This document shows, in pieces, positions 3,001-6,000 of a DNA stretch of 64,000 nt. Each line of letters opens with the position of its first letter. Position 1 is the first letter of the stretch. This DNA is from Escherichia coli. GTDB lineage: Bacteria > Pseudomonadota > Gammaproteobacteria > Enterobacterales > Enterobacteriaceae. Location: NCBI RefSeq assembly GCF_048403405.1, contig NZ_CP183129.1; one strand, 5' to 3'. The position numbers were made by a program.

Positions 3001-6000
3001 GTTATTGGCATTGGCGCAGGCAACGTCACTGACGGGCAAATTCTCGTGATGCACGACGCATTCGGCATTACCGGCGGTCATATTCCTAAATTCGCCAAAA
3101 ATTTCCTCGCCGAAACGGGCGACATCCGCGCGGCTGTGCGGCAGTATATGGCTGAAGTGGAGTCCGGCGTTTATCCGGGCGAAGAACACAGTTTCCATTA
3201 AGGAGTGACGTTGTGTTAATTATCGAAACCCTGCCGCTGCTGCGTCAGCAAATCCGCCGCCTGCGTATGGAAGGTAAGCGCGTGGCGCTGGTGCCCACCA
3301 TGGGTAACCTGCACGACGGCCATATGAAGCTGGTCGACGAAGCCAAAGCCCGCGCCGATGTGGTCGTCGTCAGTATTTTCGTTAACCCGATGCAGTTCGA
3401 CCGCCCGGAAGATCTGGCACGTTATCCACGGACCTTGCAAGAGGACTGCGAAAAGCTGAACAAGCGCAAAGTGGATTTAGTTTTCGCCCCTTCGGTAAAA
3501 GAGATCTACCCGAACGGTACAGAAACCCACACCTATGTTGATGTTCCCGGTCTTTCTACCATGCTGGAAGGTGCCAGCCGTCCGGGACATTTTCGCGGCG
3601 TTTCGACTATCGTCAGCAAGCTGTTCAATCTGGTCCAGCCGGACATCGCCTGCTTCGGTGAAAAAGATTTTCAGCAACTGGCGCTGATCCGCAAAATGGT
3701 TGCTGATATGGGCTTTGATATTGAGATTGTCGGTGTGCCAATTATGCGCGCCAAAGACGGTCTGGCGCTGAGTTCCCGTAACGGTTATCTGACGGCGGAA
3801 CAACGCAAAATTGCGCCTGGTCTGTACAAGGTTTTAAGTTCGATTGCCGACAAATTGCAGGCTGGCGAACGGGATCTCGATGAAATTATTACTATTGCCG
3901 GGCAAGAACTGAATGAAAAAGGCTTCCGCGCCGATGATATTCAGATTCGTGATGCCGACACCTTGCTGGAGGTCTCTGAAAACAGCAAACGTGCAGTGAT
4001 TCTGGTAGCCGCCTGGCTTGGCGATGCCCGCCTGATCGACAACAAAATAGTCGAGCTGGTGTAATACTTAACTGGCGCTACGGCTGATGGCGCCAGTTAT
4101 TCATTGCCACGTTATCTGTAAGCGATAATTCATAACGCAGACAACTTAGTTAGAGTTAATTAGCTTATCAACCTCTGTAAGAGATAAAGTTGCCATCTCT
4201 GCAACGTCTTCCCGAGACATTCCTTTACTCAGAAGACGCTGTGCCAGCCTTACCTTCCGGAGTCCCTCTTTATATCCCTTCTGAAATCCCTTCTGAAATC
4301 CCTTCTCTTCAAACCACTGCGCCAACGTCTGCCTGGTTTCTCTCCGTGTCTTTATTTCCATAGGTTCCCTTAATTATCTGGTCAGTTAACAATAACAATT
4401 ATCTGGCTATAACTGATGATGCAGACAACTTAGTTAATCAGCTTATCAATCTCGGCAAGGGGTAAATTTGCCATCTCTGCAACGTCTTCCCGAGACATTC
4501 CTTTACTCAGAAGACGCTGGGCGAATTCCTGACTTACTTCCTGTGTTACTTCCTGTATTACCTCTTGTCTTACCTCTTGTCTTACCTCCTGTCTTCCTTC
4601 CTGTCTTCCCCTCTCTTCAAACCACTGCGCCAGCGTCATCATAGACTTCCCTCCCGTTTCCCTGTCTCTCAGCACACCATAAAACAAATCCGCTTGTTCA
4701 GTATGACCGCGTTGCAGCATATAGTTTTGCATGGCAACTAACTGACTTCCGCTAGTGTACCCTTCGTCAATCAGCGTGACCAGTTGCTCCAGCAATAACA
4801 TTAAGTCGCGCTGGCGAATATGTTTTTGCAGTAGTTCGAGAATCGCAATCCGCCGATGTTGCATGATTTCGTCATCCGGTGTGATGGTGATATCCACCAG
4901 CGGGAAAGGGTTGTTGTAAACGCGTCGCGCCAGCTCCGGCGAGTAAAACATATCAAACCAGCACATTGAGAGCGGATAAGGTGTGGCCTCGCCCTGATAA
5001 AACAGAATCGGCACCACCAGCGGCAGCTTATCGTGATCCGCCTCCAGATGCCGGTGCATGGCAGCAATAGAATAACGCATCATGCGAAAGGCCATTTTCT
5101 TATCCGGCTTACTTTGGTGTTCAATCACCACATGCAAATAACCGGGATTACCCTGCATTTGTACGGAATAGAGTACGTCCGTGCTGTGCCCTTTCAGGCT
5201 TTCCTCAATAAAACTCCCCGACTCAAGATGCAGCGTGTCGAGGTCACACAGTTCGCGTAGCTCCGCTGGCAAATGGATATCCAGAAAGTCGCGAGCCGTT
5301 TCCGCATGCATTAAAAATTGTTTAAATACCGCATCATGCGGTGTGGTACTCGGTGCATCCATCTTCCCTGCCTTCCGTGTTGTCTTGCGTGAAGGCAGTA
5401 TCCAGTCAAGGCGCGCCGTCGTCAGCCGCCTCTTTAGTGTTTACCGAGCAGCGTTCAGAGAAATTTCAATTGGTTACAGGCGTTACATGGCACGCTTCGG
5501 CACGGTACGCAAACTGCTGATGCAAATGCCGTCAGATGAGTAGACACTAAACAAAAATCGGGCAATACTGCGTGAGAATTTCCTCAAAGCAGGCATCGCC
5601 TGCTTCGTTAACGACAGGGTAGAAAGGTAGAAGTTATGATTCGCACGATGCTGCAGGGCAAACTCCACCGCGTGAAAGTGACTCATGCGGACCTGCACTA
5701 TGAAGGTTCTTGCGCCATTGACCAGGATTTTCTTGACGCAGCTGGTATTCTCGAAAACGAAGCTATTGATATCTGGAATGTGACCAACGGCAAGCGTTTC
5801 TCCACCTATGCCATCGCGGCAGAACGCGGTTCGAGAATTATTTCCGTTAACGGTGCGGCGGCCCACTGCGCCAGCGTCGGCGATATTGTCATCATCGCCA
5901 GCTTCGTTACTATGCCAGATGAAGAAGCTCGCACCTGGCGACCCAACGTCGCCTATTTTGAAGGCGACAATGAAATGAAACGTACCGCGAAAGCCATTCC

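What the first reader, a model, noticed from the sequence alone, without database searches (positions are those of the whole stretch)
4138..4430. Free-standing RpnS-like small ORF downstream of rpnC
The panC-rpnC spacer is about 365 bp here and contains a second, diverged copy of the rpnC 3' end. That copy has an intact 71-codon ORF (4146..4361, minus strand) with its own ATG and AAGGGA ribosome-binding site. It encodes only the Rpn C-terminal domain, sharing QRLLSKGMSREDVAEMA and the TLAQWFEE entry with RpnC. From the literature, Rpn nucleases are toxic anti-phage proteins and a small RpnS protein made from an internal start in the same gene counteracts them. A separately encoded copy would therefore be a candidate trans-acting antitoxin or modulator of RpnC. 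A 52-nt block is 100% identical between the copies (4190..4241 and 4468..4519) while the flanks are diverged, which suggests gene conversion or strong selection on that segment. From memory the K-12 spacer is much shorter (about 70 bp), so this looks strain-variable.
Basis: partly seen in the sequence, partly recalled or inferred. Interest (0 to 1): 0.75.

Follow-up and report, generated by a model that had tools for sequence, protein, structure and literature searches.

The report
Known free-standing rpnC small gene (rpnC_Ss)
The small gene is real and probably translated, but it was already described in 2023 as rpnC_Ss, a second free-standing copy of the RpnC antitoxin-like tail carried by about a quarter of E. 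coli strains; its function is untested, and its repeat tract does not match the neighbouring RpnC.

Summary
There is a 71-codon ORF at 4146..4361 (-) with its own AAGGGA/ATG. It lies in a 365-bp panC-rpnC spacer, is 59% identical to the RpnC C-terminal domain, and shares a 52-nt perfect block with rpnC.

It is not new. Zhong et al. 2023 (PNAS, PMC10400941, Fig. [quoted passage not shown] RefSeq annotates it as a CDS. A junction-specific query finds it in 1420-1573 of 5426 complete E. coli genomes, and it also occurs in E. marmotae. K-12 lacks it.

The proposed role as a trans-acting antitoxin of RpnC is untested and looks doubtful. Published data show that a single 4-aa repeat mismatch abolishes neutralisation. 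Here the repeat tract is 20 aa in the small protein and 30 aa in RpnC. Of 19 distinct haplotype pairs, 18 differ in length and none is identical. K-12 ypaA (rpnE_Ss) is also one repeat out of register with RpnE.

Mosaic alleles and a natural fusion show that the two copies exchange sequence. My best reading is an expressed RpnS module of different specificity that also serves as a recombination partner for the rpnC tail.

Novelty: already known. Interest: low to moderate.

The parts
4146..4361 (-). rpnC_Ss: a 71-aa free-standing RpnS-type ORF (MEIKTRRETRQ leader, TLAQWFEE, 4-aa repeat tract, HTH-like tail)
   Evidence: ORF list. 59% identity to the RpnC C-terminal domain. TIGR01784 C-terminal positions 213-273, E 2.7e-10. 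RefSeq CDS WP_000404121.1 in a 100% identical strain. Described in PMC10400941.
4366..4371 (-). Shine-Dalgarno-like AAGGGA, 4 nt upstream of the ATG (4359..4361)
   Evidence: Read directly from the sequence. The last ~27 nt before the ATG, including this motif, are invariant in all haplotypes sampled, E. marmotae included.
4362..4429 (-). 68-nt spacer between the rpnC stop and the rpnC_Ss start, with no terminator-like structure. It contains two CCAGATAATT direct repeats (4372-4381 and 4397-4406).
   Evidence: The spacer is 68 nt in nearly all loci. The RNA fold is no better than shuffles, z 0.11. The motif occurs only here in the 64-kb window.
4245..4304 (-). Repeat tract of rpnC_Ss: KGFQ KGFQ KGYK EGLR KVRL (20 aa between WFEE and AQRLL)
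   Evidence: Alleles differ by 4-aa (12-nt) units.
4190..4241 (.). 52-nt block identical to 4468..4519; encodes RLLSKGMSREDVAEMA
4468..4519 (.). Partner of the 52-nt identical block, inside rpnC
4300..4329 (.). Second conserved block (TLAQWFEE coding) on the other side of the repeat tract; partner at 4608..4637 in rpnC
   Evidence: Repeat family D2 and base-by-base comparison.
4430..5362 (-). rpnC (RpnC_L, 310 aa): PD-(D/E)XK/YhgA-like N-domain plus C-terminal tail with a 30-aa RQEV-type repeat tract (4523..4612)
   Evidence: Pfam PF04754, E 3e-87. NCBIfam Rpn models.
4637..4642 (-). ATG ATG (Met241-Met242) with an upstream GGAGGG: the predicted internal start of RpnC_S. This pair is missing from the duplicated copy.
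   Evidence: Sequence and alignment A1. Internal initiation in rpnC is published for K-12 (PMC10400941); the exact codon here is inferred.
4070..4098 (.). GC-rich hairpin (AACTGGCGC...GCGCCAGTT) between the convergent panC and rpnC_Ss genes: probably the shared terminator that ends the rpnC/rpnC_Ss transcript
   Evidence: Fold of -28.6 kcal/mol, z -2.5. The same hairpin follows rpnC directly in K-12-type loci.
4122..4152 (.). 3' flank of rpnC_Ss, homologous (84%) to the 3' flank of rpnC at 4406..4436; marks the end of the tandem duplication unit
   Evidence: Repeat family D3.

Best explanation
The ORF is rpnC_Ss, the already described free-standing second copy of the RpnC small-protein (RpnS) module.

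Origin (shown). It arose by tandem duplication of roughly the last 280-310 bp of rpnC, that is the C-terminal domain plus about 25 nt of 3' flank.

Expression (inferred). It sits between the rpnC stop and the terminator hairpin shared with panC, and the 68-nt spacer has no terminator. It is therefore most likely transcribed as the distal cistron of the rpnC and internal rpnC_S transcripts. The original internal start (GGAGGG-ATGATG) is gone. Translation would start from a new, strictly conserved AAGGGA-N4-ATG ten codons upstream.

Product. The product is predicted to be a long helix carrying 4-aa repeats followed by two short HTH-like helices. This matches the published description of RpnS dimerisation modules.

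Function (inferred). Its repeat tract differs in length and chemistry from that of the resident RpnC (20 aa KGFQ-type against 30 aa RQEV-type) and does not co-vary with it across strains. Under the published repeat-matching rule it is therefore probably not a redundant cognate antitoxin of the resident RpnC_L. I consider it an expressed RpnS module of alternative specificity. Its DNA recombines with the rpnC 3' end at the two conserved blocks flanking the repeats, by gene conversion or by deletion-fusion. That exchange swaps and diversifies the toxin/antitoxin specificity tail.
For: Identity. It shows 59% identity to the RpnC tail and matches the Rpn family C-terminal region. Near-identical proteins carry precomputed PF27070 HTH_Rpn_C. 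The position matches the published description.

Maintained as a gene. A junction-specific query finds it in 1420-1573 of 5426 complete E. coli genomes. In 39 of 39 sampled true-hit rows RefSeq annotates a CDS. It is also present in E. marmotae and cryptic Escherichia with the conserved leader M[ED]IKTRRETRQ. The start region is invariant, and the spacer is 3-5 times less diverged than panC synonymous sites. In the non-repeat parts omega is 0.44, against 0.24 for the functional RpnC tail. For the most diverged pair there is a deficit of nonsynonymous changes (P = 0.004).

Mismatch. Of 19 distinct linker pairs, one is equal in length and none is identical. The same Ss allele sits next to RpnC tails of 26, 30 and 34 aa. 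K-12 ypaA differs from the RpnE tail by exactly one 4-aa unit. The published Fig. 4D result shows that one extra repeat abolishes neutralisation.

Recombination. The two copies share a 52-nt identical block. Ss alleles are mosaic and some carry K-12-type RpnC repeats or tails, for example P0061 and P0064. The divergent lineages L020 and L024 retain synonymous differences in the block that the main E. coli lineages have lost. The single-copy locus L028 has the rpnC N-domain fused to an Ss-type tail. The authors also report fusions.

Fold. The AF2 model has helix 6-45 followed by helices 50-56 and 61-69.
Against: There is no expression data for rpnC_Ss; only the analogous RpnE_Ss/YpaA was detected by tagging. 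No sigma-70-like promoter was found for it, so transcription rests on read-through, which is inferred. The repeat-matching rule was shown only for K-12 RpnC plus or minus one KGIE unit. It may not hold for all tails, and partial or regulatory binding is not excluded. The AF2 model has only moderate confidence (pLDDT 72) and gave no significant PDB fold match; the RpnA_S structure was not retrieved. The haplotype sample was chosen by Ss variant, is not phylogenetically independent, and covers 44 loci only. An omega of 0.44 on 36 codons is weak evidence of constraint.
Confidence: 0.6

Rival explanations
1. rpnC_Ss is a trans-acting cognate antitoxin or dosage modulator. It binds the resident RpnC_L, or heterodimerises with RpnC_S, and adds a separately regulated pool of inhibitor. 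This is the first reader's idea and the 'decoupled antitoxin' suggestion of the PNAS commentary.
For: It has the same domain as RpnC_S, with the most conserved segment identical. RpnS proteins neutralise RpnL. The commentary suggests decoupling. It is conserved and probably co-transcribed. One haplotype has equal-length linkers (L020/L022).
Against: Linker lengths differ in 18 of 19 haplotype pairs and the sequences differ in all. There is no co-variation when the RpnC repeat number changes. A one-repeat mismatch abolished neutralisation experimentally. Ss persists next to rpnC genes split into two ORFs (L025 and L042).
Confidence: 0.25
2. rpnC_Ss is a non-functional by-product of tandem duplication and unequal recombination at a repeat-rich locus. 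On this view the ORF stays open only because it is short, young or repeatedly overwritten by gene conversion from rpnC.
For: K-12 ypaA is annotated as a pseudogene in RefSeq. Most E. coli strains lack rpnC_Ss. Omega is higher than for the RpnC tail. Gene conversion could keep the conserved block intact.
Against: The leader, Shine-Dalgarno motif and ATG have no donor in rpnC, so conversion cannot maintain them. Yet they are invariant from E. coli to E. marmotae, while flanking synonymous sites differ by 12-35%. All sampled complete genomes keep an annotated intact CDS. The paralogous YpaA is made as a protein.
Confidence: 0.1
3. rpnC_Ss is an HTH DNA-binding autoregulator. A homodimer would bind the two CCAGATAATT direct repeats in its own upstream spacer, or another operator, and control rpnC/rpnC_Ss expression, as many antitoxins do.
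For: The C-terminal helices show weak HTH-type sequence and fold similarities. The authors note an HHpred HTH relationship. The 10-nt direct repeat is unique in the 64-kb window and is conserved.
Against: All HTH matches are non-significant. The crystal structure of RpnA_S is described as a dimerisation module and DNA binding has not been reported. The repeat could simply be part of the translation initiation region. Nothing here tests binding.
Confidence: 0.05

Closest known systems
rpnC_Ss (RpnC_Ss) of Zhong et al. 2023, PNAS 120:e2307382120 (PMC10400941), Fig. 2I
   Same: It has the same locus (downstream of rpnC), the same origin (a copy of the rpnC_S region) and the same strain-variable presence. 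It shows 4-aa repeat-number variation, and loss by deletion or fusion is documented. This is the same entity.
   Different: Nothing structural differs. The paper reports its existence and phylogeny only, with no expression or function test for rpnC_Ss. The systematic repeat mismatch with the resident RpnC is not stated in the text I could read.
ypaA / rpnE_Ss of E. coli K-12 (downstream of rpnE)
   Same: It is a free-standing copy of the Rpn tail immediately downstream of its parent gene. YpaA protein was detected by SPA tagging. It is also out of register with the parent tail, by one 4-aa unit (KLEG).
   Different: It arose by an independent duplication from rpnE, according to the paper's phylogeny. 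It starts at the same MTIAERL residues as the internal RpnE_S, with only a 12-nt gap after the rpnE stop, whereas rpnC_Ss has a new 10-codon leader and a 68-nt spacer. It is annotated as a pseudogene in K-12.
Intragenic RpnS antitoxins (RpnA_S, RpnB_S, RpnC_S, RpnP2_S)
   Same: The domain is the same: a long helix with 4-aa repeats followed by short helices. Repeat hypervariability is shared, and these proteins have a demonstrated role as inhibitors of the cognate RpnL nuclease.
   Different: Those are translated from an internal start inside the toxin gene, so toxin and antitoxin tails are identical by construction. rpnC_Ss is a separate gene, and in the sample examined its tail is never identical to the resident toxin's tail.
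Silent or donor cassette systems for gene-conversion diversification (for example Neisseria pilS/pilE), as an analogy for mechanism only
   Same: A partial gene copy sits next to an expressed full-length gene. Conserved blocks flank a hypervariable tract, and alleles are mosaic in a way consistent with exchange between the copies.
   Different: There is no homology to those systems. rpnC_Ss has its own conserved start signals and is probably translated, so it is not a silent cassette. No programmed switching has been shown.

Membership tests
RpnS / Rpn C-terminal domain (HTH_Rpn_C, PF27070; DUF4351-like) | Sequence homology to the C-terminal domain of an Rpn (YhgA-like) protein | tested here: met
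   BLASTP gives 59% identity over 68 aa to RpnC residues 243-310, E 2e-21. TIGR01784 positions 213-273 of 273 match at E 2.7e-10, which is below the full-length cutoff, as expected for a fragment. PF27070 (weak) is precomputed on the 90%-identical P0012. The Pfam copy in the scan tool lacks PF27070 and gave no significant hit.
RpnS / Rpn C-terminal domain (HTH_Rpn_C, PF27070; DUF4351-like) | Hypervariable 4-aa repeats (one hydrophobic residue plus three charged residues or Gly) starting 8-20 residues after the initiating Met, with copy number varying among strains | tested here: met
   The KGFQ/KGYK/EGLR units begin at residue 20. Alleles of 55-77 aa differ by 4-aa steps, and 12-nt length differences appear among complete genomes.
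RpnS / Rpn C-terminal domain (HTH_Rpn_C, PF27070; DUF4351-like) | Three-helix fold with a long first helix that forms the dimer interface (RpnA_S crystal structure) | tested here: inconclusive
   The AF2 model has a long helix 6-45 and short helices 50-56 and 61-69, with pLDDT 72. Foldseek against the PDB gave only non-significant generic HTH hits and did not retrieve RpnA_S. Sequence and profile searches of the PDB also missed it.
rpnSs genes (free-standing second RpnS copy, Zhong et al. 2023) | A separate ORF immediately downstream of the parent rpn gene, on the same strand, clustering with the parent's own tail | tested here: met
   It lies 68 nt downstream of the rpnC stop on the same strand. 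Its closest homologues are RpnC tails. The arrangement is the same in all 40+ loci examined.
rpnSs genes (free-standing second RpnS copy, Zhong et al. 2023) | The protein is synthesised | not testable with these tools
   Only indirect evidence is available: a conserved Shine-Dalgarno motif and ATG, and an intact ORF across species. SPA-tag evidence exists only for RpnE_Ss/YpaA.
Type II-like Rpn toxin-antitoxin pair (RpnL neutralised by cognate RpnS) | The antitoxin tail matches the toxin tail in number of 4-aa repeats, which published data show is required for neutralisation | tested here: not met
   The tract is 20 aa in Ss and 30 aa in RpnC in the window. Of 19 haplotype pairs, 18 are unequal in length and none is identical. 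The rule comes from Fig. 4D of PMC10400941.
Type II-like Rpn toxin-antitoxin pair (RpnL neutralised by cognate RpnS) | Direct binding to RpnC_L and inhibition of its toxicity or nuclease activity | not testable with these tools
   This needs co-expression or pull-down experiments. No multimer prediction tool was available.
Catalogued anti-phage defence systems (PADLOC-DB v2) | Match to a PADLOC protein model | tested here: not met
   Neither rpnC_Ss nor RpnC matched any PADLOC model at E <= 0.01. The library dates from the same year (2023) as the Rpn defence paper.

The most novel reading that the evidence does not exclude
Free-standing rpnSs genes (rpnC_Ss here, ypaA in K-12) may be kept deliberately out of register with the resident Rpn tail. 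On this reading they are not back-up antitoxins. They would be expressed modules of alternative specificity that act as donors and acceptors in recombination with the rpn 3' end, giving the locus a built-in way to switch the toxin/antitoxin specificity tail under phage pressure. A non-cognate RpnS might also act as a decoy or sensor for a phage factor.
Probability: 0.3. Interest if true: 0.55.

Novelty: already known. Interest (0 to 1): 0.25.

Why it matters
Rpn nucleases are a recently recognised toxin-antitoxin and anti-phage system in which the antitoxin is a gene within the toxin gene. How specificity evolves, and how the toxin is released, are both open questions. The free-standing copy is the one place where toxin and antitoxin tails can evolve independently. 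Its existence is published, so this finding adds no new entity. The comparative result obtained here is that the free-standing copy is almost never repeat-matched to its neighbour, in rpnC_Ss and in K-12 ypaA. This turns the vague idea of a 'decoupled antitoxin' into a sharp, cheap experiment. If Ss neutralises a mismatched RpnC_L, the repeat-matching rule is incomplete. If it does not, the gene must have another role, such as a cassette, a decoy or a regulator.

Tried and rejected
1. Counting rpnC-N-domain::Ss-tail fusions in complete genomes with a chimeric 223-nt query. This failed because the tool joins pieces up to about 600 bp apart, so two-copy loci also score 100% coverage. I relied instead on one verified fusion locus (L028) and on fusion-type protein fragments (P0018, P0020, P0026 and P0028).

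2. Retrieving the RpnA_S crystal structure as a fold or sequence match. It was not found. The domain is too small and too diverged, so the fold membership test stays inconclusive.

3. Pfam scans of the 71-aa protein and of 36 homologues. There were no significant hits. The library used lacks PF27070, and DUF4351 was only faint (2 members at E <= 0.1).

4. A promoter of its own. No sigma-70 consensus match lies upstream. The best manual candidate is TTGTCT-19 nt-GATAAT, whose spacing is poor, so I rejected an independent promoter as the default.

5. An RNA element explaining the nucleotide-level conservation of the 52-nt block. There was no Rfam hit. The only terminator-like hairpin inside the ORF (4189-4205) is weak and no more frequent than in shuffles. 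Divergent lineages carry synonymous changes in the block. I rejected this in favour of gene conversion combined with protein constraint.

6. Supplementary files of the paper and preprint, searched for the rpnC_Ss sequence. Nothing relevant is held, so identity with the published rpnC_Ss rests on the text description and figure legend.

7. The antisense ORFs 4190..4363 (+) and 4468..4644 (+). These mirror-image ORFs exist in both copies because of the repeat composition. I did not pursue them as genes.
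Full report
1. THE OBSERVATION

The window carries panC (3213..4064, +), then a 365-bp interval, then rpnC (4430..5362, -, 310 aa). Inside the interval is a 71-codon ATG-initiated ORF at 4146..4361 on the minus strand. 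An AAGGGA motif at 4366..4371 lies 4 nt upstream of its ATG.

The encoded protein aligns with RpnC residues 243-310 at 40/68 identities (E 2e-21). Both share TLAQWFEE and AQRLLSKGMSREDVAEMA, and they differ by a 10-residue gap in the repeat tract.

The repeat finder returns three direct-repeat families that link the ORF region to the rpnC 3' end:
- a 91-nt family at 91% identity;
- an 80-nt family at 71% identity;
- a 31-nt family covering the sequence just after each stop codon.

The 52-nt perfect run 4190..4241 = 4468..4519 is exact. With 8 mismatches in the 91-nt repeat, a run that long has an upper-bound probability of 0.0065 under random placement of mismatches. A K-12-type genome has only one copy and a 73-bp panC-rpnC spacer.

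2. IT IS ALREADY DESCRIBED

Zhong et al. [quoted passage not shown] They make three further points:
- RpnC_Ss clusters phylogenetically with RpnC_S.
- rpnSs genes show the same 4-aa repeat variation as other RpnS proteins.

The accompanying commentary (PMC10400984) also mentions the second RpnS copy and suggests that it decouples toxin from antitoxin. I found no later paper on rpnC_Ss in the held library.

RefSeq annotates the ORF as a CDS. In strain TUM14771, which is 100% identical over the query, it is WP_000404121.1 'hypothetical protein'. Elsewhere it is called 'RpnC/YadD family protein' or 'transposase'. The novelty is gone nonetheless.

3. DISTRIBUTION

A query specific to the duplication junction (4246..4431) matches 1573 of 5426 complete E. 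coli genomes, 1420 of them over at least 80% of its length. That is about 26-29% of genomes, and all hits are chromosomal. In a spread sample of that ranking, all 39 true hits carry an annotated CDS under the match.

The exact 71-aa protein is indexed in 12,019 blocks of the assembly collection. A protein search returns 168 relatives. Most carry the leader M[ED]IKTRRETRQ, and their lengths step by 4 residues. They include proteins from Escherichia marmotae and unnamed Escherichia lineages.

In every locus retrieved the gene sits between rpnC and panC. The rpnC-stop to ATG spacer is 68 nt in all but one haplotype, L033/L034, where it is 43 nt.

4. ANATOMY AND ORIGIN

Alignment of the two copies with K-12 shows where the homology runs. 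It extends from about 25 nt after the stop codon, through the C-terminal helices, the repeat tract and TLAQWFEE, to roughly the RET codons upstream.

In rpnC the stretch before TLAQ is GGAGGG-AAGTCT-ATG-ATG, a strong Shine-Dalgarno sequence followed by two Met codons. This is the obvious internal start for RpnC_S. Internal initiation is published for K-12 rpnC, but the exact codon here is my inference.

In the free-standing copy those 12 nt are absent or diverged (…ACC AGG CAG ACG…). Translation must instead start at a new ATG ten codons upstream, with its own Shine-Dalgarno motif. That upstream segment and the 3' 45 nt of the spacer have no counterpart in rpnC.

The spacer RNA has no structure beyond shuffled controls (z 0.11). 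The first strong hairpin lies downstream of the small ORF at 4070..4098 (z -2.5). It is the same hairpin that follows rpnC directly in K-12-type loci. No sigma-70-like promoter is detected upstream of the small ORF.

From this I infer, but have not shown, that the gene is the distal cistron of the rpnC and internal rpnC_S transcripts.

5. IS IT A MAINTAINED GENE?

The last ~27 nt before the ATG, including AAGGGAAC, are invariant in all haplotypes, E. marmotae included. The spacer as a whole differs at 0-10 of 68 positions between haplotypes. The flanking panC and the rpnC N-domain differ at 12-36% of synonymous sites between the same haplotypes. Because rpnC has no copy of this segment, gene conversion cannot explain its conservation.

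In the non-repeat codons, mean pairwise pN/pS is 0.44 for the free-standing copy and 0.24 for the RpnC tail. Both are far above the 0.01-0.04 of panC and the rpnC N-domain. For the most diverged pair the deficit of nonsynonymous changes is significant (8 of 17, P = 0.004), but it is not significant for all pairs.

The evidence favours a translated gene under moderate constraint, similar in kind to the known-functional RpnC tail. It is indirect.

6. FOLD AND FAMILY

The AF2 model was built on 36 homologues and has mean pLDDT 72. It predicts a long helix (residues 6-45) carrying the repeats and two short helices (50-56, 61-69). This agrees with the published description of RpnA_S as a three-helix module with a long first helix that forms the dimer interface.

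The model could not be confirmed by structure search. The best Foldseek hits are non-significant generic HTH domains, and sequence and profile searches of the PDB do not reach RpnA_S. The Pfam copy available to the scan tool lacks PF27070 (HTH_Rpn_C) and gives no significant hit. The precomputed annotation lists PF27070 (weak) on the 90%-identical P0012. NCBIfam TIGR01784 matches its C-terminal 61 positions at E 2.7e-10. PADLOC has no model for either protein.

7. DOES IT FIT THE ROLE OF 'ANTITOXIN OF RpnC'?

The published experiment most relevant here is Fig. 4D of Zhong et al. Adding one KGIE unit to RpnC_S alone, or to RpnC_LS alone, abolishes neutralisation. Adding it to both restores neutralisation.

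In the window the tract between WFEE and AQRLL reads as follows:
- KGFQKGFQKGYKEGLRKVRL (20 aa) in the small protein;
- RGRQEGRQEVRQEVRQEVIQEVTQEVSQEF (30 aa) in RpnC.

Across 44 loci chosen to cover diverse small-protein alleles I find 19 distinct pairs of tracts. Only one pair is equal in length (26/26, with different sequence) and none is identical. The window's Ss allele occurs next to RpnC tracts of 26, 30 and 34 aa. Repeat number therefore changes in RpnC without any matching change in the free-standing copy.

The independently derived K-12 pair shows the same pattern. YpaA (RpnE_Ss) has QEGKLEGLHEQ where the RpnE tail has QEGMHEQ, a difference of exactly one 4-aa unit.

If the repeat-matching rule is general, the free-standing copies are non-cognate to their neighbours. 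Three caveats apply. The rule was tested on one protein. My sample is not phylogenetically independent. Weak or regulatory interactions are not excluded.

8. EVIDENCE FOR EXCHANGE BETWEEN THE COPIES

The repeat tract is flanked on both sides by near-identical blocks:
- TLAQWFEE coding, 4300..4329 matching 4608..4637;
- the 52-nt block.

The core of the 52-nt block is identical in nearly all E. coli alleles of both copies. In the divergent lineages L020 and L024 (E. marmotae), however, the free-standing copy carries 5-6 synonymous differences from its own rpnC. Identity in the main E. coli lineages therefore reflects homogenisation rather than absolute constraint. In the window lineage an extra patch (GAGATGGCAA) matches rpnC, where other Ss alleles have GAGGTGACAG. 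This patch extends the perfect run to 52 nt.

Alleles are mosaic. Some Ss genes carry K-12-type RpnC repeats, and even the K-12-type C-terminus, behind the MEIKTRRETRQ leader (P0061, P0064; L037). Conversely, a complete genome (FDAARGOS_1371, L028) has a single rpnC whose tail …EMATLSLTEVDKLINSN is of the Ss type. Several gene fragments show the same N-domain::Ss-tail junction (P0018, P0020, P0026, P0028). This matches the authors' remark about fusions.

9. CONCLUSION

The entity is rpnC_Ss, which is already known.

The functional proposal is unproven and, by the published specificity rule, unlikely in its simple form. My best-supported account is an expressed, moderately constrained RpnS module of alternative specificity that exchanges sequence with the rpnC tail. 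The main rival is a cognate or partial modulator of RpnC. Minor rivals are a neutral remnant and an HTH autoregulator.

The decisive test is a co-expression rescue assay with this strain's RpnC_L, which is straightforward to set up.

Noticed in passing
window 4372-4381 and 4397-4406 (- strand): Two exact CCAGATAATT direct repeats lie 25 nt apart in the rpnC/rpnC_Ss spacer. They are the only two occurrences in the 64-kb window (0.12 expected). They are conserved in all E. coli haplotypes and nearly so in E. marmotae. Each contains a -10-like GATAAT. They could be an operator, a promoter element or part of the translation initiation region.
   Followed up: partly
L032 (NC_000913.3) 11905-13002: rpnE and ypaA: K-12 ypaA (RpnE_Ss) is annotated as a pseudogene in RefSeq, although Zhong et al. 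detected the tagged protein. Its repeat region has exactly one more 4-aa unit (KLEG) than the RpnE tail, so it too is out of register with its neighbour.
   Followed up: partly
window 3213-4064 (panC) and 4673-5362 (rpnC N-domain), compared with L002, L017, L020 and L030: Synonymous divergence of panC (0.12-0.24) and of the rpnC N-domain (0.15-0.36) between E. coli haplotypes is high. From memory, typical within-species core-gene values are lower, though I did not measure them here. The rpnC_Ss non-repeat codons and spacer are much less diverged between some of the same haplotypes (for example pS 0.03 and 3/68 for the window against L002). This suggests old, possibly balanced haplotypes around rpnC, with the tail module moving between them.
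   Followed up: no
L025 (636-1532) and L042 (659-1532): In one E. marmotae contig and one E. coli contig, rpnC is called as two ORFs (124+161 aa and 136+153 aa) while rpnC_Ss is intact. These may be disrupted toxins with a retained small gene, or assembly errors in short-read contigs.
   Followed up: no
L028 (NZ_CP070077.1) 1407-2297: This is a single-copy rpnC whose C-terminal tail (KGRQAVRQEVSQEF linker, …EMATLSLTEVDKLINSN end) is of the free-standing-copy type. It is a natural N-domain::Ss fusion in a complete genome.
   Followed up: yes
L033/L034 (649-1828): This haplotype has a 43-nt rather than a 68-nt rpnC/Ss spacer and an MDITARRE leader. Its RpnC and Ss repeat tracts are closely related in sequence but differ by one 4-aa unit (22 against 26 aa).
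   Followed up: no
window 4190-4363 (+) and 4468-4644 (+): Antisense ORFs of 57 and 58 aa mirror the two tail copies (MPSLQRLPETFLYSEDA…). They are probably a by-product of the repeat composition rather than genes.
   Followed up: no
RefSeq annotation of the ORF across genomes: Product naming for the same small gene is inconsistent: 'hypothetical protein', 'RpnC/YadD family protein' and 'transposase'. None of the names refers to RpnS or to an antitoxin role.
   Followed up: no
window 4189-4205 (- strand): A weak terminator-like hairpin (GTTGCAGAGATGGCAAC followed by TTTATCTCTT) lies inside the small ORF. It is created by the lineage-specific patch that extends the identical block. Its count is no higher than in shuffles, so it is probably fortuitous.
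   Followed up: partly
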